Shown here piece after piece: positions 6,692 to 57,074 of a DNA stretch of 64,000 bases (position 1 is its first letter; every line of letters starts with the position of its first letter). The stretch is from Marinifilum sp. (GTDB lineage: Bacteria; Bacteroidota; Bacteroidia; Bacteroidales; CG2-30-32-10). The notes below the pieces were generated by a model. The model did not search any database. It saw only the letters and a program-made list of their open reading frames with translations, and was not told the DNA's origin. The position numbers and the translations under genes are program-made. The stretch spans positions 754-64,753 of the forward strand of contig DYDE01000001.1 of the NCBI GenBank assembly GCA_020718065.1, given 5' to 3'.

Positions 6692-6715
6692 CATTTACAT
6701 TGTATAATATACATT

Positions 6716-7246
6716 TCAATAACTTGTGAAAGCTTTGTTTTCAGGTTTTATTAATTGAATAAGTTCTTCTATATTGATGCTTTCACCCTTAATGATGTAG
6801 TTTGCTTTGTTATAAAAGGGTTCTCTTAAAGCAAGTTTTTGTTCAATATAGTTCTTTAATTCAGACTCATCTTCAAAAGCTTCGATTAGTGGTCTTTTTT
6901 TGAAAGAATACTTTAATCTGTTGGTAAGTGAAGTTATACTCATTTTTATATAAACCGAAACACCATTTTTATTGATAATTTCCATATTGTCAAAACTGCA
7001 AGGAGTTCCTCCACCTGTTGAAATTACTGCATTATTATTTTCATTTAAAATTTTAATTAAAATATCCCGTTCTATTTCTCTATATTTTTCCTCCCCATAT
7101 TTTGAAAAAAAATCAAAAACACTAATGTTGTTCTGCTTTTCAAAAAATGTGTCTGTATCAATAAATTTACTTTGCAATAGTCTGGAGAGCTTTTTCCCTA
7201 TAGTTGTTTTGCCACAACCCATAAAACCAACTAAAATAATATTCAT
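6716..7246 (-). CDS. aroK: Shikimate kinase
   Basis: 176 aa. P-loop GFMGCGKTTIGKKLS and STGGG shikimate-binding motif. Confidence 0.9.
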   Translation of the reverse strand: MNIILVGFMGCGKTTIGKKLSRLLQSKFIDTDTFFEKQNNISVFDFFSKYGEEKYREIERDILIKILNENNNAVISTGGGTPCSFDNMEIINKNGVSVYIKMSITSLTNRLKYSFKKRPLIEAFEDESELKNYIEQKLALREPFYNKANYIIKGESINIEELIQLIKPENKAFTSY

Positions 7247-15623: not shown

Positions 15624-15820
15624 CTGATCGATACAATTACATTGTTAATAGATTTATGGTACTCCTTTCAATTTCAGTTCTCATCATAACAATTATTCAT
15701 GCCTGGTATTTCACTACTAATCATGAATTAATATTTACAATCTATTCTTAATTTCACATTCTAACAAATTGCCTTACAGGTTATTTCCATTAACAAATAT
15801 AAAATCAAGGCAATTTTTCT

Positions 15821-16240
15821 TAAATCGGGTAGGTTTTTACCTTAAATCGGAGTGATTTGATGTCAAGTCAGGTTGATTTGATGTCAAATCGGGTTGGTTT
15901 TACCTTAAATCGGAGTGATTTTACCTAAAGTCAGGTTGATTTGATGTCAAATAGGGTTGGTTTGATGTCAAATCGGGTTGATTTTACCCTAAATCGGAGT
16001 GATTTTACCTAAAGTCAGGGTGATTTAAGGTAAAATCGGGTTGGTTTTACCTTAAATCGGATTGATTTGATGTAAAGTCAGGGTGATTTGATATCAAATC
16101 GGGTTGGAATGACATCAAATCAAGTTGGTTTGACATCAAATCGAGTTGGTTTGATATAAAGTCAGGTTGATTTGATGTCAAATCGGGTTGATTTTATCAA
16201 AAGTCAAGATGATTTATTCTCATATTGGGTTGGAATGGAA
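15821..16240. repeat. Tandem array 1: 20 units of exactly 21 bp (consensus about TCAAATCGGGTTGATTTGATG), 63-bp super-period
   Basis: I counted the units one by one: 15821, 15842, 15863 ... 16220, with no indels. Many units contain inverted arms TCAAATC-N5-GATTTGA. Junctions give GATTTGA-TG-TCAAATC. Confidence 0.9.
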
Positions 16241-23406: not shown

Positions 23407-24123
23407 ATGGTCTTTAATATTTGTGGGTTTACACATAAAGGTACTGGCATATACACTTCTAACGAAGACAATATGTTGATAAACGATACTCAGTTAAATG
23501 AAGGTGAGTTTTTACTATTCAACCAGCCCTCATGTGTATGTTTTATTTCAGATGGTGTTGGTGGCAGTAAAGCCGGAGACTTTGCTTCTGCATTTGTTTT
23601 GTCAAAAATAAAAGAACTAACAACTGAACAATTAAATGACTTAAACAATATACTATATAAAGTAAATGATAATTTGCTTGAAGTTTCGTTGAATGATGAA
23701 AACAAAAGAGGTTGTGCCTGCACCTTATCTGGTTTAATAGCTTTCGATGATTTCTTTGATTTTACTCATATCGGAGATTCTGAAATTTGGCTCTTACGCA
23801 ATGATATGTTTATAAAGATATCAAAAGATGAAGTTGCAGATGAAGATAATGTTCTAAGTCCGATAACCAATTATTTCGGAGGAACAAAAAACAACCTTAA
23901 AATAAATACAGCATGGGAAAAGCCAGAATTATTTGCAAATGATGTTTTTCTTCTTTGTTCTGATGGATTGTTCAAATCATTAAATGTGAAATTGGTAAAA
24001 CCTATCCTCTCTTCAACAAAGAGTTTGCAGGAAAAAGTGCTCAAACTTAAAGAAAACTGCCTGACACTTGGCTCTGATGATAATGTAACGGCTATTATCA
24101 TTGAAATAATAAGTAATGAATAA
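23407..24123 (+). CDS. PP2C-family (PPM) Ser/Thr phosphatase
   Basis: Metal-binding motifs FISDGVGGSKAG, HIGDSEIW, LLCSDGLF, GSDDNVTAIIIE. 238 aa. Confidence 0.85.
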   Translation: MVFNICGFTHKGTGIYTSNEDNMLINDTQLNEGEFLLFNQPSCVCFISDGVGGSKAGDFASAFVLSKIKELTTEQLNDLNNILYKVNDNLLEVSLNDENKRGCACTLSGLIAFDDFFDFTHIGDSEIWLLRNDMFIKISKDEVADEDNVLSPITNYFGGTKNNLKINTAWEKPELFANDVFLLCSDGLFKSLNVKLVKPILSSTKSLQEKVLKLKENCLTLGSDDNVTAIIIEIISNE

Positions 24124-24127
24124 CCAG

Positions 24128-25663
24128 ATGAACCGATTTACCAGAATTTCAAAAACACTCATATATTCTATGCTATTACTCATAAGTGTAAGTGTTGTTT
24201 GTTTTTTTGGTGATCAACCTGTTACTTTTATTGCTGCATACATTCCAATAGTGATAATTGCCTTACTTACCACTTATTTTATATTTGAGAAAAAAACCAG
24301 AGAAAAGCGGAAAACAATTAGAATTTTGAAATACCAAAAGGAAATTGCTAAAATTTTATCTGTTAATTATTCTCAAAATATGTTGATTTTGCAATTGCAA
24401 ATTCAAAATGCAAAGCATAATTATATTTCAAGTACGATTATCAACAAACCGAATCAAATTCAAAGTGCAAAATATACAAAAAACAAAAGTATTGAAGTAT
24501 ATGTAAACCCAAAAAATCAACATGATATTGCTATTCCCGATTTATATGGAAGACAAGCTCCAAAGCCGTTGATAGATTATTTTGCAGTGGTTTTCTTTCC
24601 TGTTTTGTCGTTTTGTTTTGCCATACCTTTTCTTTTTATTATAATAAGTGAATCGGATCGTATTTTTCAAGATAGTGCATTTATAAAGACAATTAATAAT
24701 CAGGGCAGTATTTGGGAAATATATTTCAAATCACCAAAAAAAACCTTCATTAATATTTACAACCCTTTTAAAAACGAGAAAATAATAACAATTAAAAATA
24801 AAAGAGACAAGGAGTTAAATAAACATACCAACTTTTTTATCAGTCAGCAAAAACAAAATGTTTTTGTTATTGGCACAGGTAATACTCCTGTATTTGATGT
24901 TTATAATGCAAACTCTTATGAGAAAACAACAGATATTAAAGCCTTCGAACAATCGCATAAAATACTAAACAAGGGTATAGCAACAATCGAACGGAGTCAG
25001 TTCTTTAGAAAATTCATAAAGGACGGGGTTATAAAAATTAGTACTAACGATAAGAAAGTATGTTACTTCAATATAACCCAAAATAAATTATATAATTCCG
25101 AAAAGGAAATACAAAAGTATTTCGATCAAATGGATTCTGCCTATATTAATAAACACCCGTATTCATTTGTTTTACCCTATATTCCAAACAGCTCCAATAA
25201 ATTTCAATTATACAAAATTGAAACAATGAATAATAAAGGGATAAATGAATTAATCAAATTGGCAGGAGACAATAGTATCAGCGTTGATTCCATCAAAGAA
25301 AACAATAAAAATTTTTGCAAGTTTAACCCTCTTTTAGCTTTCTATGATTATTTTACAGAAGCCAAAATCATTTATTTTGATAGTTCTTTAGTAGTTATTG
25401 AACACATAACAGATATAAACAAAGATAGAGAAGAAATAATTTCAGGTTTTGACATCAATAGAAAGAAGCTATTTGCTATAGAACAAAAAGAATATCCAAA
25501 TATTTCAAAAATGAAAGAGGATAAATATTTCCATAATTACTCTAAAAAACCAAAAACCGAAAGGGACAATGACAAACTTATAATTATTTTTGAAAAATAT
25601 GGCGCTTTATGTATCAATTTAGGATCAGGCAATATTCTTTGGAAATACAAACCTGTCTTATAG
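24128..25663 (+). CDS. Sensor-like membrane protein, paralog A (2 TM, DUF3592-like insert, TM, ~330-aa C-terminal domain ending in a PQQ-like blade)
   Basis: Start chosen by homology with paralog B (MNRFTRISKT vs MNRITRKTKI). The track ORF starts at 24116. Conserved blocks FFISQQ, GTGNTPVFDVY, CYFNI.Q, QLYKIET.NNKG, YGALCINLGSGNILWKYKP. Confidence 0.7.
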   Translation: MNRFTRISKTLIYSMLLLISVSVVCFFGDQPVTFIAAYIPIVIIALLTTYFIFEKKTREKRKTIRILKYQKEIAKILSVNYSQNMLILQLQIQNAKHNYISSTIINKPNQIQSAKYTKNKSIEVYVNPKNQHDIAIPDLYGRQAPKPLIDYFAVVFFPVLSFCFAIPFLFIIISESDRIFQDSAFIKTINNQGSIWEIYFKSPKKTFINIYNPFKNEKIITIKNKRDKELNKHTNFFISQQKQNVFVIGTGNTPVFDVYNANSYEKTTDIKAFEQSHKILNKGIATIERSQFFRKFIKDGVIKISTNDKKVCYFNITQNKLYNSEKEIQKYFDQMDSAYINKHPYSFVLPYIPNSSNKFQLYKIETMNNKGINELIKLAGDNSISVDSIKENNKNFCKFNPLLAFYDYFTEAKIIYFDSSLVVIEHITDINKDREEIISGFDINRKKLFAIEQKEYPNISKMKEDKYFHNYSKKPKTERDNDKLIIIFEKYGALCINLGSGNILWKYKPVL

Positions 25664-25697
25664 ATTCTCTTTGTTTATACATTTATAATATAAAATA

Positions 25698-27221
25698 ATG
25701 AACAGGATTACCAGAAAAACAAAAATTCTCACTTATGCTATGCTAATATTGATTAGCGTAAGTTCATTTTGTTTTCTGGGAGACCAACCTATAGCCTATA
25801 TTATTGCTTTAATTCCGATAGGATTAATTATTCTTTTCATCGCTTATTTTATTATTGAGAAAAGGACAAGAGAAACACGCAATATGATGAAAATTGCAAA
25901 ATTCAGAAAAGAATATGCGAAAATTATTGCCGTTGATTATCATATTGATTTACTTATTATGCAATTAAAAATATCAAATGGCAAAATTGATTATACAACT
26001 AGCCTTATTATCAATAAACCTGATCAGGAAATGAGAAGAGCATTTTCAGAAGGCGAAAGCATTGAAGTATGGGTAAATCCAAAAAATCAACATGATATTA
26101 CTATGATAAACATATACGAAAAATCTGTTGCCAGTCGTAATGTAAATTGGATAACAATTCTAGTAATATTTCTTAATATTTTTATTTTTACAATTAGTCC
26201 TATTGTTGATTATATAAATCCGAAAAAACAATTTCAGGATATTGCTGTAATTAATACTACTGACAAACCTGATATTATTTGGGAAATTCAATACAGTTCT
26301 CCTAAAAGTATCTATATTAAAATATACGATCCATTAAATGATAAGAAGATAAAAACAATTAAAGATAAAAAAGAAAAGGAATTTGATAACAATATAACTT
26401 TTTTTATCAGTCAGCAGAAAAAAAACGTGTTAATTGTTGGTACTGGAAGCACTCCTGTTTTTGATATTTATGATGCTTCTTCTTATAAAAAAATAGCTGA
26501 TATCAAAAACTTTGAAAAATCAAATACAATTTTTAGCACAGGCATATCATCAATAAAACATATAACTTCTGACTATTGGTATAATAATGATGATATGATT
26601 GAACTAACAACCAATGATGCCAACAAGTGCTATTATAATATTCAGCAAGATAAATTTCTTTATTCAGAGAATGATTTTGAGAAACATATTGAGGATTTAG
26701 ATTCATTTTTCATAGGACAACAAATGTTTGTATTTGCTCTTTCAAGCGTTTCAGATCATATAGACAAACGTCAACTCTACATTATTGAAACAAATGATAA
26801 AAAAGGCATAGAAACATTGAAAACGCATGAAGGGATAAACATATTAGATGTTGATAACTTTAATAACAATAAAAAATACAACCATTGCAACCTAATCCCA
26901 CTTTGTAGTGATACTTTTTTTCTGCGAGGGAATATAATATACATAGATTCTACAATGGCAATAGTCCACCATGTAAATTCTGTTAACAAAAATGCAGAAG
27001 AACTAATAAGTGGTATACACAAAAGTGGAAAGCAGCTTTTCCGCATATATGAAGCTGATTACCCTAATTTGAAAGACATGAAGAAAGATGAACATAAACC
27101 ACACAATCATATAATAAAAAGTACAAGAATAAGTAATAAAATTGTATTATTGTTTGGCAAATATGGCGCTTTGTGTGTTGATGTTAAATCCGGAAAGATA
27201 ATTTGGAAATACGAACCATAA
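25698..27221 (+). CDS. Sensor-like membrane protein, paralog B
   Basis: Same architecture and conserved blocks as A and C. C-terminus YGALCVDVKSGKIIWKYEP. Confidence 0.7.
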   Translation: MNRITRKTKILTYAMLILISVSSFCFLGDQPIAYIIALIPIGLIILFIAYFIIEKRTRETRNMMKIAKFRKEYAKIIAVDYHIDLLIMQLKISNGKIDYTTSLIINKPDQEMRRAFSEGESIEVWVNPKNQHDITMINIYEKSVASRNVNWITILVIFLNIFIFTISPIVDYINPKKQFQDIAVINTTDKPDIIWEIQYSSPKSIYIKIYDPLNDKKIKTIKDKKEKEFDNNITFFISQQKKNVLIVGTGSTPVFDIYDASSYKKIADIKNFEKSNTIFSTGISSIKHITSDYWYNNDDMIELTTNDANKCYYNIQQDKFLYSENDFEKHIEDLDSFFIGQQMFVFALSSVSDHIDKRQLYIIETNDKKGIETLKTHEGINILDVDNFNNNKKYNHCNLIPLCSDTFFLRGNIIYIDSTMAIVHHVNSVNKNAEELISGIHKSGKQLFRIYEADYPNLKDMKKDEHKPHNHIIKSTRISNKIVLLFGKYGALCVDVKSGKIIWKYEP

Positions 27222-27312
27222 AAAACACCTAAAGTGAACAAAAGTTTGATGTTACTAAACTTAAATTGTATTAATATTTTAATTATCCAGAAACAGAATT
27301 AAAACAATATCT

Positions 27313-28836
27313 ATGACAACTGATAATATAAAAAAAATAATTTTATTAATAGTTCTAATATTAGTATTTGGAATTATACAGTTATTTATTAAAAACAATA
27401 TCATTGCCATTTCTTTATTGAGCTTGATGGTAATCGGTATTTTAATTTATCTGAAACGTTCAAATGCAACATCAATAAGACAAAAAAACAAAATAATCCA
27501 GCATGGCAAAAGAGTAAAGGCCCATATTTTATCTGTTAAAACGGTTAACCATAATTCAATTATCTTGTCTTTACTTGTTGAGCATCCGGAAAAGTTTTAT
27601 GTTACAAGCTATATTACCAATTCTTATATGATGACAAGAGAGTCATATAAAAAAGATCAGCAGATAACTGTTTTTGTAAATCCTATTAATCAATATGAAG
27701 TAATTATTCCTGAAACAAAAAAAGAAACAAATCCTGCTCCAAAAACCGCTTTTTGGGGCGTATTTACAACAGTTGGCATTATTGCTCTTTCATTTGGAAT
27801 ACCATTGTTCGTTGCTTTATTCGACACTTCAGAAAGAGAATTTAAAGACATAACTATTATTCAAAGCAATAAGCAGGAATACATATGGGAAATTCGTTTC
27901 GAATCTCCAAAGAAGGTTTTTTTTAAAATATACAACCCCATTACTAATGAAAAAATCAAGTCCTTTAAAGACAAAAAAGACATAAAACTTGATCATTATA
28001 CCAATTTCTTTATCAGTCAGCAAGAACTGAAAGTTTATATCATTGGAACAGGCAATACACCTGTTATTGATGTCTATGATGCAGTAACATTAGAAAAAGT
28101 TTCGGATATCGAAAAATTTGAACAATCAGATAAGATTCTTAGAAAAGGAATTGCTTCAATTCATTTTGAAACACCTAATAACAGGCTAACTAAAGATAAT
28201 GTGATAACTATAACCACCAATGATGGAAATAAATGTTTCTACAATATTCAACAAAATGAATTCTATTATTCTGAAAAAGAATTAAAAGATTATTTTGAAG
28301 AATCAGATTATGCCCTATTGAGTAAGCAAATGTTTGTATTCGTGCAATCGAACATTCCAAATAGTGTTAATAAACATCAGCTTTATATTATTGAAACAAA
28401 TAACAAAAAAGGGATTGAATATTTGCAAAGACATGCCGGTTCTATTAACCTGGATGTTGATTACTTTAATAAAAACAGGAAATATTCTTTTAAATACTGT
28501 AATCTTATACCACTTTGTCCTGAAAATTATTTTCTGGAAGGTAAGTTTCTATATTTCGATGCTTCCATTGCAATTATTCAACATGTCACTGCTATTAACG
28601 ATACTGCTGATGAATTAATAACTGGTATCAATAAAAGCGGTAAGACTTTATTTGCTATAAATCAAAGTGATTATCCAAATATAAAAGACATGACCGAAAA
28701 CAATCACAAACCGAACTACAACAACAAATTAAAGGTTATAAGGAACAGCAATAAAATTTATTTACTTTTTGATAAAAATGGAGCAATGTGTATGGATATA
28801 AATACAGGTAAAATTCTTTGGAAATACGAACCTTAA
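27313..28836 (+). CDS. Sensor-like membrane protein, paralog C
   Basis: Same architecture. 48 of 94 residues identical to paralog B in the IWEI...GI.SI block, which I aligned by eye. C-terminus NGAMCMDINTGKILWKYEP. Confidence 0.7.
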   Translation: MTTDNIKKIILLIVLILVFGIIQLFIKNNIIAISLLSLMVIGILIYLKRSNATSIRQKNKIIQHGKRVKAHILSVKTVNHNSIILSLLVEHPEKFYVTSYITNSYMMTRESYKKDQQITVFVNPINQYEVIIPETKKETNPAPKTAFWGVFTTVGIIALSFGIPLFVALFDTSEREFKDITIIQSNKQEYIWEIRFESPKKVFFKIYNPITNEKIKSFKDKKDIKLDHYTNFFISQQELKVYIIGTGNTPVIDVYDAVTLEKVSDIEKFEQSDKILRKGIASIHFETPNNRLTKDNVITITTNDGNKCFYNIQQNEFYYSEKELKDYFEESDYALLSKQMFVFVQSNIPNSVNKHQLYIIETNNKKGIEYLQRHAGSINLDVDYFNKNRKYSFKYCNLIPLCPENYFLEGKFLYFDASIAIIQHVTAINDTADELITGINKSGKTLFAINQSDYPNIKDMTENNHKPNYNNKLKVIRNSNKIYLLFDKNGAMCMDINTGKILWKYEP

Positions 28837-29794: not shown

Positions 29795-32089
29795 CTATTC
29801 CACAGAAATCTCATCCACAAACAACCATGCTGGCTCTCCTGCTCCCGGCATTCCTTCGGGAATTTTGCCAATATTCTCTGCTACAACTTTAATATATCTT
29901 GCTGATGTTTTATCAAATATCAATTCTATTGCTCTTCCTTGTTTTATTATTTCCTCTTTATTAAGGCTTTTTAGCTCCTTGTAGTTGGTACCATCCTTCG
30001 AAACAAACACTTTGATGCCCTTTGGTAAGTGAATCCAGCTATTTTCATCACCTAAAACATCAACAGTTATTTTGGTAAAACTTTCGGATTTATTCAGATC
30101 AATAACTGCTTCGAGGTTTTCTCCCAAAAAGCCAAGCCATTCCTTGCCATACCATGGAATAACACCTTTTATACCATCAACCAATGTAAAAGCACCTCCA
30201 TTGTTATATTTTTCATGAGCTTGTTTTGTTAAGCTTATTCTTTTTCCACTTGCTTTGTTAACATAAAACTGTTGTTCAAAGATATTACTTTTTCTTGCAT
30301 TGGTCTGAAAAAGAGCAGTTTTAACTTTTGTGTTTGTCAATATATAAAATGGACCGGTATATTTGTTAGAAAAAATGGTTGGATCGCTTCCATCTATGGT
30401 GTAATAAACGTCAGGATTGGGCATATCGGAAGAAATACTAACACTCACTCCATTTCCACTGGGAGTTTTACCGGAATTTATTACCAGATCAAACAATGCT
30501 TTCGAATAATTGATTTTATGAAAATCAAGATAAGAGAAATGATCTATAAGTCTTGGTTTAAAGGCTTCCCAACTACGATAATCCTTTGGTGTCCATAGAA
30601 CTTCTGCCAATGCACACATTCTTGGGAAAATCATATATTCTACTTTATCCGTTGTGCCAATATATTCAGTCCATACATTTGCTTGTGCCCCTAAAATATA
30701 TTTTTGTTCGTTAACAGATAATTCTGTTGGTGTCGGTTCATAAGAATAAACTTTTTCTACAGAAATATAACCTCCAATTGCAAGTGGCTCAAATTTAGGA
30801 TTACCCTGATAATAATCAAAATAACAATGACTGCCAGGCGACATCACCACATAATGGTTTTGTTTGGCAGCAGCCACTCCTCCTTCTGTCCCTCTCCATG
30901 ACATCACTGCTGCATTGGGTGCAAGCCCTCCTTCTAATATTTCATCCCAACCAATAATGTTTCTACCTTTTGAATTAACGAACTTTTCGATACGTTTTAT
31001 AAAATAACTCTGTAGTTCTGCTTCATCTTTCAATCCTTCTTTTTTAATCAAAGCCTGACAATATGCACATTTCTTCCATTTTTCCTTCGGAACTTCATCC
31101 CCACCAATATGAATATATTTACCAGGGAATAAATCCATCACTTCGGTCAACACATCTTCCAGAAATTTGAAAGTTTCTTCTTTTGGACAAAAAACATCAT
31201 CGAATACACCCCATAACTTTGATGCCTCAAATGGACCTCCGGTACATGAAAATTGAGGATAAGCACTTAATGCAGCCAAACAATGCCCGGGCATTTCTAT
31301 TTCAGGAACAATAGTAATATGTCTGGCAGTGGCATAAGTAACAATTTCTTTAATATCGTTTTGAGTATAATATCCTCCATAACGAATAGTATCGTATTGA
31401 TGCGGACTGTTGCGATAAGCACCAATCAATGTTCCATTTCTATATCCCCCTATTTCGGTTAATTTAGGGTACTTTTTAATTTCTATCCTCCAACCCTGAT
31501 CATCGGTAAGATGCCAATGAAAAGTATTCATCTTATACAAAGCAAGGAAATCAATATATTTTTTAATAAAGGCTGTGGGGAAAAAATGTCGCGAAACATC
31601 CAGGTGCATACCTCTCCATGCATATCGTGGATAATCGGTAATTTTGTAACAAGGAATGTTGATTTTATTTTGCTTGGTAAGTGGAAGCAATTGTTTAATA
31701 GTTTGTAAGGCATAAAAGATACCTGAAGCATCCCCTTGTATCCTTATCTCCTCAGGTGAAATATTGAGAGAATAACCTTCAGCAGCCAAAGTTTTATTAA
31801 CTTCAGGTTCCAGCCATATACAATTGCCTTTTTTGAAAGAAGAAACAACTTCTATTTTTGTTTTGAACCCATAATACTGAAATAAATATTCATTAAACAA
31901 CTCGGCATCCATTTTACTTGTTTCGGTAGAATAAAAAATTATTGTTTTGTCCGACAACTCAAAATTACCCTCTGAATTCTTTACAGAAACAGGTTCCGGG
32001 ATAAGGAAATAGTTTGATGCTTTAGCAATATTAACATGTATAAACAATATAGAAATTAATATTATAAATTTAAATCTGATTGATTTCAT
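29795..32089 (-). CDS. Beta-N-acetylhexosaminidase (GH20) with C-terminal discoidin/F5-8 type C-like domain, secreted
   Basis: Signal peptide. GH20 catalytic region RGMHLDVSRHF, FHWHLTDDQGWR, HIGGDEV. C-terminal about 150 aa resembles a carbohydrate-binding module. Confidence 0.9.
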   Translation of the reverse strand: MKSIRFKFIILISILFIHVNIAKASNYFLIPEPVSVKNSEGNFELSDKTIIFYSTETSKMDAELFNEYLFQYYGFKTKIEVVSSFKKGNCIWLEPEVNKTLAAEGYSLNISPEEIRIQGDASGIFYALQTIKQLLPLTKQNKINIPCYKITDYPRYAWRGMHLDVSRHFFPTAFIKKYIDFLALYKMNTFHWHLTDDQGWRIEIKKYPKLTEIGGYRNGTLIGAYRNSPHQYDTIRYGGYYTQNDIKEIVTYATARHITIVPEIEMPGHCLAALSAYPQFSCTGGPFEASKLWGVFDDVFCPKEETFKFLEDVLTEVMDLFPGKYIHIGGDEVPKEKWKKCAYCQALIKKEGLKDEAELQSYFIKRIEKFVNSKGRNIIGWDEILEGGLAPNAAVMSWRGTEGGVAAAKQNHYVVMSPGSHCYFDYYQGNPKFEPLAIGGYISVEKVYSYEPTPTELSVNEQKYILGAQANVWTEYIGTTDKVEYMIFPRMCALAEVLWTPKDYRSWEAFKPRLIDHFSYLDFHKINYSKALFDLVINSGKTPSGNGVSVSISSDMPNPDVYYTIDGSDPTIFSNKYTGPFYILTNTKVKTALFQTNARKSNIFEQQFYVNKASGKRISLTKQAHEKYNNGGAFTLVDGIKGVIPWYGKEWLGFLGENLEAVIDLNKSESFTKITVDVLGDENSWIHLPKGIKVFVSKDGTNYKELKSLNKEEIIKQGRAIELIFDKTSARYIKVVAENIGKIPEGMPGAGEPAWLFVDEISVE

Positions 32090-32364
32090 ATCTAAGGCTT
32101 TTAAAATTGTTTTATAAACATCAAAATAAATGAAAATTAATCACTTTTTAAAAGAAATGTTGTTGATTAATTTAATGATAGTATGATAGGATAATAAGAC
32201 AAGAGGATAATGAGATGATAGGATTACAAGATAATTGCTAAATTGAAAGTTACAAAACAGCGTAGTATTATTTCTTTTGGATTTGTTTACATTCCTTTAG
32301 CAAAAAAGAGCAAATCATGATTCTTAGAAAATGTATTTGTAATTGTGTTCAATCATAACTATTG

Positions 32365-32503
32365 GAGGGTTCTAAAATTAAGCTTCTCCCGCAGATTTCG
32401 CTAATTTTCGCAGCATAAAAAACACAACGCATTGAAAACCAATCTGCGAATATTTGCGAAATCAGCGGGAAACTATTTGTTTTTGAATTTTTAGAACTGC
32501 CCT
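32365..32503. repeat. MITE/REP-like palindromic element, copy 1
   Basis: Outer inverted termini GGGTTCTAAAATT (32367-32379) and AATTTTTAGAACTGCCC (32486-32502). Inner inverted repeat TCCCGCAGATTTCGC (32387-32401) / GCGAAATCAGCGGGA (32456-32470). Confidence 0.6.
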
Positions 32504-32674: not shown

Positions 32675-33136
32675 CTCAAGTACCCTTGCCTCAATGCTTG
32701 AGACAATTGCCTCGAATCTCGGGACAAGGATTTTTTTCCTTGAGGCAAGGTTACCCGACCTTGAGGCAATTGCCCCGAACCTCGGGACAAGGATTTTTTT
32801 CCTTGAGGCAAGGTTACCCGACCTTGAGGCAATTGCCCCGAATCTCGGGACAAGGATTTTTTTCCTTGAGGCAAGGGTACCCGACCTTGAGGCTATTGCC
32901 CCGAACCTCGGGACAAGGATTTTTTTCCTTGAGGCAAGGGTACCCGACCTTGAGGCAATTGCCCCGAACCTTGGGACAAGGATTTTTTTCTCTGAGGCAA
33001 GGGTACTTTCCTTTCAGGCAAGTGTACCTGACTTTGGGGCAAGTGCCCCAAACTTTGAGGCAATTGCCCCAAGCTTCGAGGCAAGGATTCCTGACCTTGA
33101 GATAAAGAAATATATCTTCGAGTCAAGAATATCTAT
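32675..33136. repeat. Tandem array 2: about 22 units of exactly 21 bp, 63-bp super-period (CCTTGAGGCAAGGTTACCCGA / CCTTGAGGCAATTGCCCCGAA / CCTCGGGACAAGGATTTTTTT)
   Basis: Super-units start at 32738, 32801, 32864, 32927 and 32990 (exact 63-bp steps), degenerating toward 33136. Mini-palindromes CCTTG-agg-CAAGG and CCCGA-acc-TCGGG. Confidence 0.9.
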
Positions 33137-33494
33137 TAATGATTAAAAGGTATTTAAAAAGAGGCAAAGGATTTTTGGCTCAGGAGAAATCAGATATTAT
33201 AATAAGTCCCTAAGCTATATTATTCATGGAAAAATCATTACTTTTACAAAAAAATGGCAGAAATAAACAAACATTAAATATCAATGTTAGTAATGATTTT
33301 ATTTATTAATTGGTATCATTTTTTCAATGTAAATATTTAATGATTTCATGAAACAAAACATAAAATTTAATATCCTTTTCATTAATTAAAATATATAAAA
33401 TAATTTTATGAAACATTTAAAATTTTATTTAGTCTAGTTTTGCATTTTATTAATAATTTCGTGTAATAAGAACAAAAATCCTTTATTAAATATT

Positions 33495-34658
33495 GTGACT
33501 CCTTCAAATAATTACTCTATTTACAAAGGTGATAGTATAATTATTAATGTCCAAGCAAATGATCCTGATGGACTAATAGAAAATATAGATTTTATTATTG
33601 ACAATAATAATGTTTATCAAGCCAAAATTGAGCCATATAAATATGTATGGCACACAAACGATGCCAAAGGCGGCCAACATTCTATTAAAATCACTGCAAC
33701 TGATAATGAAGGATCACATACTTCAAAAATGATTAATATTGAAATAAAAACTATTTCTCCAATAATACAAACATTACCAATTTCATTTATTGGAACAACT
33801 TATGCGACATTAAAAGGAAATGTTACCTCAACAGGAATTCCAGCTATTTATAATATGGGAGTATGCTGGAATACAAGTGGAAATCCAATAATTGAAGATA
33901 ATAAAACAATATTAGCAGGTGATACTGGAACATATATTGGAGAATTAAAAGAACTTTTGTTGGGAACCAAATATTTTGTTAAAACATATGCTCGAAATAT
34001 AGATACTATTGTTTATGGAGATGAAGTAAGTTTTTCAACCTATAATATTTATTACTCAGATTCTGGTTCATTTACTGATAATCGCGATTCTACCATATAT
34101 AAATGGATTAAAATAGGAAATCAGATATGGATGGCAGAAAATTTAAAATATTTAGCTAGTAATATTCAAGCGTATGTCCCAAATTATTACGATCCTACTT
34201 ATCCATGGAACTATACAGGACCTCGATACATAAGAGATATTCCTCTAGCAAGAGCTTCGGAATATTATCAAACATATGGTTGTCTTTATCATGATCAGAC
34301 AAATCTTTGTCCAAATGGATGGCATATACCATCTAGCACAGAATTTTTAGAATTAATTAATTATGTTGGTGGAAAAGATGTTGCAGCTGGAGTTATGAAA
34401 GAATCAGGAACTGAACATTGGGATAGTCCAAATACAGGAGCAACCAATAAAACAAATTATACTGTATTAGGTGCAGGAAGCTTAAATAATAAATATAATG
34501 ATAATTACACCGGACTAAAAACTCGTTGTGCTTTTTGGACTTCGGATTTGTATTTAGTCCGAATTCAATATGATTCTGAGGGTATTATAAATTTTGGCCC
34601 AGCTATCTATCCTGAAGACACATGGTGTTTTTATAGTATAAGATGTATTAAAGATTAA
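33495..34658 (+). CDS. FISUMP-domain protein (Fibrobacter succinogenes major paralogous domain) with N-terminal Ig-like domain; lipoprotein signal peptide appears cut off by an in-frame TAG
   Basis: C-terminal FTDNRDSTIYKWIKIGNQIWMAENLKY...CPNGWHIPSSTEFLEL...FWTSD matches the FISUMP pattern. The track ORF starts at a GTG. 87 bp upstream and in frame lies ATG 33408 encoding MKHLKFYLV-TAG-FCILLIISCNKN (lipobox). Confidence 0.75.
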   Translation: MTPSNNYSIYKGDSIIINVQANDPDGLIENIDFIIDNNNVYQAKIEPYKYVWHTNDAKGGQHSIKITATDNEGSHTSKMINIEIKTISPIIQTLPISFIGTTYATLKGNVTSTGIPAIYNMGVCWNTSGNPIIEDNKTILAGDTGTYIGELKELLLGTKYFVKTYARNIDTIVYGDEVSFSTYNIYYSDSGSFTDNRDSTIYKWIKIGNQIWMAENLKYLASNIQAYVPNYYDPTYPWNYTGPRYIRDIPLARASEYYQTYGCLYHDQTNLCPNGWHIPSSTEFLELINYVGGKDVAAGVMKESGTEHWDSPNTGATNKTNYTVLGAGSLNNKYNDNYTGLKTRCAFWTSDLYLVRIQYDSEGIINFGPAIYPEDTWCFYSIRCIKD

Positions 34659-38162: not shown

Positions 38163-38432
38163 TTATTCAGGAAAATATTTGTAGATATCCTTTCTATGAA
38201 GGAAGCAAACAAAAAAGACTATATTATTTTCAATATTTAAGCCTATTCTGAAATCTTTTATTTTTATTCTGTAATAAGTTTTATAGCCTATTAATTTTTT
38301 TATATTAGCTATTTCTTTAGTATTACTGACAGATTCTACGTTATTGATTGCTTTATAAATCAGTAATAGTATGTTTTTGTCATTTATTTTTTTAATGTCT
38401 TTACTAAAACTGGATTTAAATTCAATTTTCAC
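38163..38432 (-). CDS. Type II toxin, RelE/ParE superfamily
   Basis: 89 aa. The pattern ...LIGYKTYYRIKIKDFRIGLNIENNIVFFVCFLHRKDIYKYFP matches the RelE/ParE consensus (yR.r.gdyRi......i....v.hRk.iY). Confidence 0.75.
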   Translation of the reverse strand: MKIEFKSSFSKDIKKINDKNILLLIYKAINNVESVSNTKEIANIKKLIGYKTYYRIKIKDFRIGLNIENNIVFFVCFLHRKDIYKYFPE

Positions 38433-38626
38433 TTTTTTAATGTTTTTAAAATTGTGTCTTTAGAAACAGTTTTAGTTTTCATTCCACTTGAGATTGAGCG
38501 CCCTAATGCAAAATCTTCTTTTTCCTCTTCTGATAAAGTTTTTGCAACAGCTCCAAATCGTTTTGCTAAATCAATGAAAAATTTAACATCTATTTTATTA
38601 GGTATATCAATAATTAATGTCGTCAT
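38429..38626 (-). CDS. Putative cognate antitoxin
   Basis: 65-aa ORF immediately upstream of the toxin with a 4-bp overlap. No family recognised; call rests on position and size. Confidence 0.5.
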   Translation of the reverse strand: MTTLIIDIPNKIDVKFFIDLAKRFGAVAKTLSEEEKEDFALGRSISSGMKTKTVSKDTILKTLKK

Positions 38627-38745
38627 AGCCTTATAATTTTTTTTACAAATTTACAACAAATATCAAAAATTACCAAAAAAGCTAAACTTGATGAAGTCTT
38701 GCATGTTAACTTTTGCATTTGTAAACTTTGTCGTTTTATTAAAAA

Positions 38746-38875
38746 GGGTTTCTAAAAATTAGATTTTTTGAGGCAGACAAAATTTTAAAACCGGAGTTTA
38801 CATTAGTAAATGAGGATTTTAATCCCGATTAATCGGGAGAAGTCCAACGAAGAAAAAGCAATTTTTAGAAGTCCC
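38746..38875. repeat. MITE/REP-like palindromic element, copy 2
   Basis: Outer inverted termini GGGTTTCTAAAAATT (38746-38760) and AATTTTTAGAAGTCCC (38860-38875), matching the termini of the 32365-32503 element. Different internal hairpin: TCCCGATTAATCGGGA. Confidence 0.6.
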
Positions 38876-38898
38876 GTAAAGTTTTTTTAGAACCTATT

Positions 38899-56655: not shown

Positions 56656-56949
56656 AGGGGGTTTTATGTGAAAGAAAAACACTTTTTTGAAAGTCTCGGG
56701 AAGTCTCATGTAAGCCTTGGGAAGACATAAATAAGCCTTGGGAAGTCTCATGTAAGAAAAAAATACTCTCATGTGAGCTTCGGGAAGTTTCATGAAAGGC
56801 TTGGGAAGACTTAAATAAGCCTCGGGAAGTTTCATATAAGAGAAAAATGCTTTAAAGTAAGGCTTGGGAAGTATAAGATATAGAGGGGATAAGGACATGG
56901 GGGTATAGAGGAATAAAGGCATAGAGGTATAAAGGTAAAGGGGAGTATC
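56656..56949. repeat. Tandem array 3: about 14 units of exactly 21 bp (GGGAAGTCTCATGTAAGCCTT type), 84-bp super-period
   Basis: Units start at 56698, 56719, 56740, 56761, 56782 ... in exact 21-bp steps. The four-unit block 56698-56781 is repeated at 56782-56865. The array degenerates to GGATAAGGACATGGGGGTATA-type units toward 56949. Confidence 0.85.
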
Positions 56950-57074
56950 TTATGAAGTGTGTAAACTAAAAAGCTTAGTATTTTTTTCATTATTTACTAA
57001 CAAGCTCTTCCTTTTATTTCATTTTAATTAATTTTACTTTTTTTTTATACCATTTGATTTTCTATAACAAGATT

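What the first reader, a model, noticed from the sequence alone, without database searches (positions are those of the whole stretch)
32675..33136. Array 2: about 22 strictly phased 21-bp repeats (63-bp super-unit) in a 1.4-kb non-coding gap upstream of the FISUMP gene
Seen: the 63-bp super-unit CCTTGAGGCAAGGTTACCCGA-CCTTGAGGCAATTGCCCCGAA-CCTCGGGACAAGGATTTTTTT recurs at exact 63-bp steps (32738, 32801, 32864, 32927, 32990). It then decays over six or seven further 21-bp units. It contains mini-palindromes (CCTTG-agg-CAAGG, CCCGA-acc-TCGGG, CAATTG). The sequence is unrelated to arrays 1 and 3, yet the period, the absence of indels and the position upstream of a plus-strand gene are the same. 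It is locally much more GC-rich than its surroundings. Inference: three different sequences obeying one 21-bp rule suggests a shared generating or selecting mechanism rather than three coincidences.
Basis: partly seen in the sequence, partly recalled or inferred. Interest (0 to 1): 0.55.

Follow-up and report, generated by a model that had tools for sequence, protein, structure and literature searches.

The report
Phased 21-bp non-coding minisatellite array
A real, non-coding array of 22 head-to-tail 21-base repeats lies between two ordinary genes of an uncultured groundwater Bacteroidales bacterium, and it is one of several unrelated arrays in that genome that all keep the same 21-base period, which points to a shared but still unidentified molecular ruler.

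Summary
Window 32675-33136 holds 22 units of 21 bp in one unbroken register: one inverted unit at the left edge, two diverged units, four near-identical 63-bp higher-order copies, then seven decaying units. GC is about 51% against 15-33% in the flanks.

It is not coding, not a known RNA, not a BrickBuilt-type MITE, not phage or plasmid DNA, and very unlikely an assembly artefact.

The 21-bp rule holds up. This MAG (GCA_017973795.1, Bacteroidales-like) carries a fourth 21-bp array just outside the window. A second Bacteroidetes MAG has two such arrays in 8 kb. In 1.24 Mb of related control loci there is none. Unit sequences of different arrays are no more alike than chance. Array 3 is missing from the syntenic spacer of a relative.

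Three arrays in divergent intergenic regions, including array 2, start with one inverted unit, an iteron-like layout. Within array 2 an 11-bp core stays conserved while the other 10 bp vary.

My best reading, at low to moderate confidence, is arrays amplified in place at the DNA level, with the period set by a two-helical-turn pitch of protein binding. Function and ruler remain unproven. Copy number of the 63-bp unit is unresolved.

The parts
32675..33136 (.). Array 2 as a whole: 22 units of 21 bp in one register
32675..32695 (.). Left-edge unit in inverted orientation. It is the reverse complement of unit a (TTGAGGCAAGGGTAC) and forms a head-to-head junction with the first direct unit.
   Evidence: 17-mers match the inverted consensus at 14-16/17 and the direct consensus at 8-10/17. 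There is a 16-nt perfect complement to 32993-33008.
32696..32737 (.). First, slightly diverged b and c units (GCTTGAGACAATTGCCTCGAA, TCTCGGGACAAGGATTTTTTT)
32738..32989 (.). Four near-identical 63-bp higher-order copies (a = CCTTGAGGCAAGGKTACCCGA, b = CCTTGAGGCAATTGCCCCGAA, c = CCTCGGGACAAGGATTTTTTT). Each copy is marked by 1-2 SNPs.
   Evidence: lag-63 identity 0.98
32990..33136 (.). Seven progressively decaying units. The GAG.CAA core persists while the rest drifts towards AT.
29795..32089 (-). Left neighbour, transcribed divergently: GH20 beta-hexosaminidase gene
   Evidence: Pfam Glyco_hydro_20, E = 5.6e-125
33408..34658 (+). Right neighbour: lipoprotein gene with Big_7 and Fib_succ_major (FISUMP) domains. 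The ATG is at 33408, there is an in-frame TAG at 33435-33437, and the open frame resumes at 33495.
15819..16240 (.). Array 1: about 20 units of 21 bp (TCAAATCGGGTTGATTTGATG, higher-order periods 63 and 84), with stop codons in all six frames. It belongs to the same class as array 2 but has an unrelated sequence.
   Evidence: an independent contig spans it identically
56691..56880 (.). Array 3: about 9 units of 21 bp (AAGCCTTGGGAAGTCTCATGT, higher-order periods 42 and 84), upstream of dnaE. It is absent from the syntenic spacer of a relative.

Best explanation
Array 2 is a non-coding minisatellite that works at the DNA level. It belongs to a lineage-specific population of phased 21-bp arrays in an uncultured groundwater Bacteroidales genome.

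Shown:
- The arrays arise in place in intergenic regions that carry promoters. They share no flanks, show no sign of mobility, and array 3 is missing from the same spacer in a relative.
- They grow and are homogenised by slippage or unequal exchange. The signs are 42-, 63- and 84-bp higher-order units, a homogeneous centre and decaying edges.
- Their unit sequences are unrelated, but the period is always 21 bp.
- Inside array 2 an 11-bp core (CYTYGRGRCAA) is kept while the other 10 bp vary.
- The three arrays in divergent intergenic regions start with one inverted unit.

Inferred:
- The common period is a ruler of two helical turns. My model calculation gives 21 bp as 1.98-2.00 turns.
- The ruler is most plausibly imposed by proteins that occupy one unit each, so that all lie on the same face of the helix. 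Known examples are plasmid iterons (monomers on direct repeats, a dimer on the inverted copy), ARG boxes (18 + 3 bp) and LytTR sites (9 + 12 bp).
- Only duplications of that length can then expand and persist.
- The likely consequences are modulation of the flanking promoters or of local chromosome structure, and variation in copy number.
For: - Strict register and core conservation: 21 cores sit at one offset. Columns 1-11 carry 33 mismatches, while columns 12-21 carry 94.
- Same period in four of four arrays in this genome and in two of two arrays in a second MAG, with none at 21 bp in 1.24 Mb of control loci.
- Units of different arrays are unrelated.
- No shared leader, tail or terminal inverted repeats.
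- Array 3 is absent from the syntenic 205-bp spacer of a relative with 82% DnaE identity. That relative's upstream gene is 66% identical.
- Array 2, L003a (2189-2356) and L003b (6702-6921) each carry an inverted unit at the edge facing the divergent gene.
- The dyad of the b unit pairs in 74.6% of cells, against 21-52% when the partners are slid.
- In L003b the array ends about 48 bp upstream of a TAnnTTTG -7 box of the downstream gene.
- The iteron precedent, dimers on an inverted repeat and monomers on direct repeats, is described in PMC4857107.
- Coding is excluded and no known RNA family matches.
Against: - No binding protein was identified. The neighbours are ordinary housekeeping genes with no regulator, rep, par or transposase gene.
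- Unrelated cores would need a different sequence-specific binder for each array, or a binder with little sequence specificity.
- Ten to 22 sites is far more than known operators or iterons have.
- The arrays are not conserved in near relatives, so any function is dispensable or very young.
- Predicted intrinsic curvature is unremarkable for arrays 2, 3 and 4.
- No compensatory changes maintain the dyad.
- A filter based on helical phase alone would also allow periods of 10-11, 31-32 and 42 bp, and none was seen.
Confidence: 0.35

Rival explanations
1. The arrays are neutral or selfish satellites made by a lineage-specific mutational ruler. An integrase, transposase or template-switching process duplicates exactly 21 bp at GC-rich palindromic seeds, and unequal exchange then expands them. 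The arrays have no function.
For: - Array density is high in two MAGs and low in controls: about 60 per Mb against about 3 periodic regions per Mb, none of them at 21 bp.
- The unit sequences are unrelated, as expected if the unit is simply the local target.
- The arrays are not conserved in relatives.
- The head-to-head junction at one edge suggests a palindromic seed.
- No binding protein or regulator lies nearby.
Against: - To my knowledge no known enzyme makes 21-bp target duplications.
- No array is interrupted by an inserted element, and no transposase or integrase gene lies in the 64 kb that was scanned.
- Conservation inside array 2 is uneven, with the core at 14% mismatch cells and the remainder at 45%. 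Uniform neutral decay does not predict that.
Confidence: 0.25
2. The arrays are transcribed as hairpin-array RNAs. They could be a long structured leader, a small RNA that sequesters an RNA-binding protein, or a series of terminators or stabilisers, in the way cyanobacterial STRR repeats have been proposed to act.
For: - The arrays fold far better than shuffles, with z-scores of -4.3 to -7.9.
- They are GC-rich islands in an AT-rich genome.
- Each 63-nt module of array 2 ends in a T7 run on the plus strand, and one copy scores as terminator-like.
- Array 1 folds much better on the plus strand: -46 against -23.8 kcal/mol.
- GGA or GGG recurs every 21 nt in most arrays.
- STRR repeats are thought to form hairpins that affect transcript stability (PMC2670836).
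Against: - Array 2 folds equally well on both strands, which fits DNA dyads better than a selected RNA strand.
- There is no covariation.
- No Rfam family matches.
- No plus-strand TAnnTTTG promoter box lies upstream of the window arrays.
- The better-folding strand is not the same relative to the neighbouring genes from one array to the next.
- Nothing about RNA explains a 21-nt rule.
Confidence: 0.15
3. The array is a minisatellite carried by a miniature transposable element, like BrickBuilt or PgRS of Porphyromonas gingivalis.
For: - BrickBuilt also occurs in the Bacteroidales. [quoted passage not shown]
- A MITE-like hairpin lies 180 bp left of array 2, and another lies near array 4.
Against: - The arrays share no leader, tail or terminal inverted repeats.
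- Each array has its own unit, found nowhere else in the window.
- The MITE-like ends occur only twice in the window, and one copy has no array beside it.
Confidence: 0.05
4. The array is the remnant of an integrated plasmid origin or centromere, that is, true iterons or a sopC/parC-like array.
For: - Direct repeats of about 21 bp sit next to an inverted copy and a very AT-rich stretch.
- The iteron architecture of pPS10 is described in PMC4857107.
Against: - No rep or par gene is present and the neighbours are housekeeping genes.
- DnaA-box-like sites occur at the chance level and none lies in this spacer.
- There is no similarity to 72,556 plasmids or 50,697 phages.
- Four different arrays within 67 kb of chromosome cannot all be origins.
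Confidence: 0.03
5. The array is an assembly artefact linked to the default smallest k-mer of 21 in de Bruijn graph assemblers.
For: - The period equals the usual minimum k.
- Contigs of other assemblies break inside arrays 2, 3 and 4.
- All the data for this genome come from one read set.
Against: - Units differ by 5-46%, are arranged in higher-order patterns and decay at the edges. A graph cycle would not produce that.
- Array 1 is spanned identically by a k = 127 contig.
- The two k = 127 contigs that meet inside array 2 match the window exactly.
- A MAG from a different study shows the same kind of array.
- The 82 control loci, metagenome contigs from many projects, show none.
Confidence: 0.03
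6. The array encodes a protein made of heptad repeats (21 bp = 7 codons).
For: - Array 2 is open in three frames. Two are plus-strand ORFs of 153 and 150 aa, and gene callers called pieces of them.
- Mismatches in array 1 show a 3-base periodicity, p = 8e-6 uncorrected.
- Array 4 shows changes that look synonymous in one frame.
Against: - Several frames are open at once, which is what GC-rich repeats in an AT-rich genome produce.
- Array 1 and L003a have stop codons in all six frames.
- Third-position GC of the array ORFs is 0.49-0.54, against 0.23 +/- 0.04 for 40 real genes.
- No Pfam family reaches its cut-off.
- A word-indexed search of 5.8 billion proteins found nothing.
- The exhaustive HMMER search hit only low-complexity heptad ORFs such as SRVPDTS and LGSRISD, not a family.
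- The periodicity in array 1 rests on about 12 independent events once the higher-order copies are discounted.
Confidence: 0.02

Closest known systems
BrickBuilt and PgRS minisatellites of Porphyromonas gingivalis (PMC4596501)
   Same: Both are found in the Bacteroidales and are strictly intergenic. Both are spacer-less tandem arrays of a unit about 20 nt long, with up to about 23 copies that are imperfect within an array. [quoted passage not shown] Function is unresolved for both.
   Different: The BrickBuilt unit is 23 nt (PgRS 41 nt) and has 0-6% indels. It is one sequence family present at 19 loci, with conserved leader and tail segments and IS5-like terminal inverted repeats. Here the period is exactly 21 bp and every array has a different unit. 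There are no shared flanks or terminal repeats, and three arrays carry a single inverted unit at one edge.
Plasmid iterons with an operator inverted repeat (for example pPS10 RepA, PMC4857107)
   Same: Both have contiguous direct repeats of about two helical turns, each a conserved core plus a variable spacer. Both have an inverted copy at one side and adjoin AT-rich DNA.
   Different: To my knowledge iterons number 3 to about 9 and lie next to their rep gene and DnaA boxes on a replicon. Here there are 10-22 units on a chromosome, no rep gene and no DnaA-box cluster, and several different arrays lie close together.
Operators phased at 21 bp: ARG boxes (18-bp palindromes 3 bp apart) and LytTR sites (9-bp direct repeats 12 bp apart). 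These are recalled from my own knowledge and were not checked here.
   Same: The centre-to-centre distance is 21 bp, which puts successive protein subunits on one face of the helix. Each site has a core plus a spacer. In the ARG box each unit is a dyad.
   Different: Known operators have two or three sites, lie next to regulated genes and are conserved among relatives. The arrays here are ten times longer, unrelated to each other and not conserved.
Cyanobacterial STRR repeats (PMC2670836)
   Same: Several unrelated repeat sequences in one lineage share a single period. They are intergenic, able to form hairpins, and of unknown function.
   Different: The period is 7 bp rather than 21 bp and the phylum is different. 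No 7-bp sub-period is visible in the arrays here.

Membership tests
BrickBuilt-type MITE with internal minisatellite | Spacer-less tandem direct repeats of about 20 nt, located between genes | tested here: met
   22 x 21 bp lie between the GH20 and FISUMP genes.
BrickBuilt-type MITE with internal minisatellite | Conserved leader and tail segments shared by the copies | tested here: not met
   blastn among the five array-bearing spacers found no match longer than 15 nt. The flanks have no other copy in the window.
BrickBuilt-type MITE with internal minisatellite | IS-like terminal inverted repeats at the ends of the element | tested here: not met
   No common terminal repeats were found. The nearby MITE-like ends occur at only two places and are not tied to arrays.
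BrickBuilt-type MITE with internal minisatellite | The same unit sequence at many loci of one genome | tested here: not met
   Each core occurs only in its own array within the window. Consensus units are unrelated. Only about 67 kb of the genome could be examined.
CRISPR array | Repeats separated by unique spacers of similar length | tested here: not met
   The units abut with no spacers.
Plasmid iteron origin or centromere-like array | Direct repeats phased at about two helical turns, with an inverted copy nearby | tested here: met
   The register is a strict 21 bp and there is an inverted unit at 32675-32695.
Plasmid iteron origin or centromere-like array | An adjacent initiator (rep) or partition gene, and DnaA boxes | tested here: not met
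   Pfam on the neighbours gives GH20, CutC, FISUMP and a T9SS-sorted protein. DnaA-box-like sites number 24 against 24 expected, with none in the spacer. There is no plasmid or phage similarity.
Protein-coding heptad repeat | One frame that is open, uses the genome's codon preferences and has homologues | tested here: not met
   Three frames are open at once. GC3 is 0.49-0.54 against 0.23 +/- 0.04 in real genes. There are no true homologues.
Known structured RNA family (Rfam 15) | A match at or above a family's gathering score | tested here: not met
   There were no matches in the window. Only weak miRNA-like hairpin noise appeared at permissive thresholds.
REP/BIME elements (RAYT-associated) | The same palindromic unit dispersed over many spacers, in alternating orientation, with a Y1 transposase | tested here: not met
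   The units are not dispersed and run head to tail. No Y1 transposase appeared among the proteins scanned.
Phased operator of a response regulator or repressor (LytTR, ArgR type) | Sites 21 bp apart centre to centre | tested here: met
Phased operator of a response regulator or repressor (LytTR, ArgR type) | A cognate DNA-binding protein binds the sites and regulates the neighbouring gene | not testable with these tools
   No regulator gene lies in the neighbourhood. Binding and expression data do not exist for this uncultured organism.

The most novel reading that the evidence does not exclude
A few Bacteroidota lineages may possess a dedicated molecular ruler. It could be a DNA-binding or DNA-processing protein with a 21-bp pitch, for example an iteron-binder-like or integrase-like factor. 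This ruler would seed arrays at short palindromes and extend them in one direction. The product would be a new class of polar, phased palindromic minisatellite, scattered at roughly one per 15-25 kb and able to tune or insulate the neighbouring promoters.
Probability: 0.2. Interest if true: 0.8.

Novelty: new variant of a known kind. Interest (0 to 1): 0.55.

Why it matters
Bacterial intergenic minisatellites are known, but they are usually a single sequence family or isolated loci. Here several unrelated sequences in one genome, and in a second unrelated MAG, obey one exact period, and related genomes lack such arrays.

That pattern is hard to explain without a shared physical ruler, whether helical phasing, a protein pitch or an enzyme. 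It offers a concrete way to find that ruler: compare the gene content of genomes with and without arrays.

There is also a practical point. These arrays break short-read assemblies (four contig ends fell inside them) and are wrongly called as genes, which matters for MAG quality and annotation.

Tried and rejected
- **Coding.** Six-frame translations, stop-codon and GC3 statistics, Pfam, a word-indexed search of 5.8 billion proteins using concatenated frames (no hit), and an exhaustive HMMER search (only low-complexity heptad ORFs). Rejected.
- **Known RNA.** Rfam at gathering and at permissive thresholds on the window, L003 and L086 gave nothing. No tRNA or tmRNA.
- **MITE or BrickBuilt.** Flank comparisons found no shared leader, tail or terminal repeats.
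- **Phage or plasmid origin.** Two viral-contig pattern scans and blastn against plasmids and phages found no match.
- **Common ancestry of the arrays.** Circular comparison of consensus units on both strands against shuffles was not significant. The exceptions were the units within array 2 and array 2 against L003b, which my search pattern had selected.
- **Intrinsic curvature.** I used a wedge model whose parameters I recalled from memory. Array 1, L003a and L003b come out curved, but arrays 2, 3 and 4 do not, and none is exceptional against random 21-mers in tandem.
- **Compensatory changes in the array 2 dyad.** None beyond shuffles.
- **Strand asymmetry of RNA folding.** Strong for array 1, array 4 and L003a, absent for array 2, and not consistent relative to the neighbouring genes. 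Inconclusive.
- **Bacteroidetes-type promoter boxes (TAnnTTTG).** Found at the background rate, and on the plus strand only next to L003b.
- **Replication-origin features.** DnaA boxes are at the chance level.
- **Homologues of a gene between arrays 1 and 2, to fetch syntenic loci.** The gene is an orphan, so that search was wasted.
- **Extending the window.** Only about 1 kb more on the left and 2.3 kb more on the right could be reached.
- **Literature.** Searches for 21-bp tandem repeats in Bacteroidetes found no precedent.

Full report
**1. What is there**

Window 32675-33136 lays out as 22 consecutive 21-bp units without a single indel. A GAGGCAA-like core recurs at 21 successive positions from 32700 to 33120, always at the same offset modulo 21.

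The units come in three types:
- a = CCTTGAGGCAAGGKTACCCGA
- b = CCTTGAGGCAATTGCCCCGAA
- c = CCTCGGGACAAGGATTTTTTT

Together they form a 63-bp higher-order unit. Four near-identical copies start at 32738, 32801, 32864 and 32927, and each is tagged by one or two SNPs. Tandem Repeats Finder gives period 63, 4.9 copies, 95% matches and no indels.

The 63 bp before them are a diverged copy. Seven units after 32990 decay towards the AT-rich flank. Identity at lag 63 reaches 0.98, whereas the best value in 500 shuffles of the array was 0.47. GC is about 0.51 in the array and 0.15-0.33 around it.

I add three details:
- The very first unit (32675-32695) is an inverted copy of unit a.
- The first 11 columns of the unit are far better kept than the last 10, with 33 against 94 mismatches.
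- The 63-bp unit is tiled with short dyads: CCTTG-AGG-CAAGG, GGGTACCC, GGCAATTGCC, CCCGA-ACC-TCGGG and CAAGGA-T6-TCCTTG.

**2. Where it is**

The window is part of contig JAEMOL010000020.1 (84.6 kb) of MAG GCA_017973795.1, from groundwater metagenome ERR628383. Its DnaE is 81-82% identical to two uncultured relatives. It is 64-66% identical to proteins labelled 'Bacteroidales bacterium'.

The array lies in a 1.3-kb divergent spacer between a GH20 hexosaminidase gene (minus strand) and a FISUMP lipoprotein gene (plus strand). Every other gene I scanned in the window is ordinary chromosomal housekeeping. There is no transposase, integrase, rep, par or regulator gene next to any array.

**3. Is it real DNA or an artefact?**

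The period equals the usual smallest k-mer of metagenome assemblers, so I checked.

- The units differ from one another, form higher-order patterns and decay at the edges. A graph cycle would not produce that.
- An independent k = 127 assembly of the same reads spans array 1 identically.
- The two contigs of that assembly that meet inside array 2 (ending at 32959 and starting at 32889) match the window exactly.
- A MAG from another study has the same kind of array.
- The 82 control loci, metagenome contigs from many projects, have none.

The arrays are real. The number of 63-bp copies in array 2 is a minimum estimate.

**4. The 21-bp rule**

- Arrays 1 (15819-16240) and 3 (56691-56880) also have period 21, with higher-order periods of 63/84 and 42/84.
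- A fourth array lies about 1.5 kb beyond the left end of the window, and a contig ends inside it. It is at L086 8525-8826, with unit TTRCATGYCCTCCGGAnnnnn and a higher-order period of 63.
- A pattern scan of 185,579 species genomes returned an uncultured Bacteroidetes MAG (L003, Umea1_bin-1585). It has two 21-bp arrays within 8 kb. One shares the GAGGCAA core, which my pattern selected. The other, CTGGCGAAACATAGCTACGTT x 8, is unrelated and was not selected.
- The same scan returned a weak five-unit case in a Rhodoblastus genome.
- An autocorrelation scan over lags 8-69 finds only lag 21 and its multiples in these sequences.
- In 82 control loci from relatives (1.24 Mb) the same scan finds four periodic regions, with periods 27, 69, 51/24 and 23, and none at 21.
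- The nearest relatives (44 kb in all) have no such array.
- The syntenic spacer upstream of dnaE is 205 bp in L091, against 740 bp with array 3 in the window. The proximal promoter region is conserved.
- Consensus units of different arrays are no more alike than shuffled units.

The rule is therefore real, specific to certain lineages and independent of sequence. I could not run the whole-genome census, because only about 67 kb of this genome was reachable.

**5. What it is not**

*Not coding.*
- Three frames of array 2 are open at once.
- Array 1 and L003a have stop codons in all six frames.
- Third-position GC of the array ORFs is 0.49-0.54, against 0.23 +/- 0.04 in 40 genes that use all three stop codons.
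- No Pfam family reaches its cut-off.
- Neither database search found a real family: a word-indexed search of 5.8 billion proteins gave no hit, and an exhaustive HMMER search gave only low-complexity heptad ORFs such as SRVPDTS and LGSRISD.

*Not a known RNA*.

*Not a BrickBuilt-like MITE.* There is no shared leader, tail or terminal inverted repeat, and no second copy of any unit (PMC4596501).

*Not phage or plasmid DNA*.

*Not an origin.* There is no excess of DnaA boxes.

**6. Clues to mechanism**

(a) Polarity. Array 2, L003a and L003b, the three arrays that lie in divergent spacers, each begin with one inverted unit on the side of the minus-strand gene. In L003b this makes a perfect 22-bp palindrome, TCCTTTGCCTC|GAGGCAAAGGA. 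Such a match at an array edge has a chance probability of roughly 1e-3 per array, by my own estimate.

(b) A conserved core with a variable spacer within array 2.

(c) The centre is homogeneous and the edges decay, which is the signature of unequal exchange.

(d) Under standard twist values, 21 bp equals 1.98-2.00 helical turns (parameters recalled from memory).

(e) L003b ends about 48 bp upstream of a Bacteroidetes-type -7 box.

This layout, direct repeats at a pitch of two turns plus one inverted copy, is that of plasmid iterons. There, initiator monomers bind the direct repeats and dimers bind the inverted repeat (PMC4857107). The 21-bp spacing is also that of ARG boxes and LytTR sites, which I recall from my own knowledge.

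Against a simple operator model:
- No binding protein is evident.
- Each array would need its own binder.
- The number of sites is ten times that of known operators.
- The arrays are not conserved.

Intrinsic curvature does not explain array 2. The b-unit dyad is well formed, with 74.6% of cells paired, but shows no compensatory change. RNA folding is strong on both strands of array 2. Its strand bias differs among the arrays in no consistent direction.

**7. Verdict**

The best-supported reading is a DNA-level minisatellite amplified in place, whose period is fixed by a two-turn ruler. The ruler is most plausibly the pitch of protein binding on one face of the helix. I hold this with a confidence of about 0.35.

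The main rivals are a neutral satellite made by an unknown 21-bp duplicating process (0.25) and a transcribed hairpin-array RNA (0.15).

The closest known things are the BrickBuilt and PgRS minisatellites of P. gingivalis. They share the order, the intergenic position and the unit size, but they are a single family borne by a MITE, with a 23- or 41-nt period. By analogy only, cyanobacterial STRR repeats also combine several sequences with one period (PMC2670836).

I class the finding as a new variant of a known kind. What makes it interesting is the exact common period across unrelated sequences in two genomes, together with the inverted unit at one edge.

Noticed in passing
window 33408-33497: The FISUMP lipoprotein gene has an ATG at 33408 and a typical lipoprotein signal, MKHLKFYLV*FCILLIISCNK. 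An in-frame TAG at 33435-33437 interrupts the signal, so the open frame only starts at GTG 33495. This could be a pseudogene, a sequencing error or an alternative start. The genome uses all three stop codons normally.
   Followed up: partly
L086 8525-8826 (about 1.5 kb left of window position 1, beyond the end of the source contig): This is a fourth 21-bp array, with at least 14 units and a higher-order period of 63 bp. The unit is TTRCATGYCCTCCGGAnnnnn and contains the palindromes RCATGY and TCCGGA. Both the ENA contig and, apparently, the NCBI contig end at or near it.
   Followed up: yes
window 32360-32500 and 38746-38874; L086 8162-8310: These are MITE-like elements of about 130-150 bp with shared ends (GGGTTTCTAAAAATT ... 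AATTTTTAGAAsTCCC). The one at 32360-32500 is a long imperfect hairpin 180 bp left of array 2. The L086 copy is 80% identical to 38745-38881 and lies about 215 bp from array 4. The elements are not systematically linked to arrays.
   Followed up: partly
window 15842-16219: Mismatches among the units of array 1 fall mainly on every third column (43 of 75; p = 8e-6 uncorrected), even though all six frames have stop codons. Once copies of higher-order units are discounted, only about 12 independent events remain, so the signal is marginal and unexplained.
   Followed up: partly
window 24116-28836: There are three tandem paralogous genes of 507-515 aa, about 42% identical to each other, with no Pfam domain. 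The one searched has no homologue among 5.8 billion proteins. They lie downstream of a kinase / FHA / PP2C / AAA+ / radical-SAM gene cluster.
   Followed up: partly
window 38163-38626 (minus strand): A small ParE/RelE-type toxin (89 aa) and antitoxin (65 aa) pair sits in an otherwise empty 1-kb spacer.
   Followed up: no
window 56879-56950: Directly after array 3 comes a purine-rich stretch with short repeats of 16 and 24 bp (ATAGAGGAATAAAGGC).
   Followed up: no
L004 206-308 (Rhodoblastus sp. 17X3): A five-unit, decaying 21-bp repeat keeps an AGGCAA/GGCAA core. It lies in a divergent spacer of an alphaproteobacterium. It was retrieved by my pattern, so it may be a chance hit.
   Followed up: partly
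L089 13485-13861 and L091 8940-9000: Relatives carry other repeats near dnaE. L089 has a 133-bp unit repeated 2.8 times downstream of the gene, and L091 has a 16-bp unit repeated 3.8 times in the upstream spacer. Neither has a 21-bp period.
   Followed up: no
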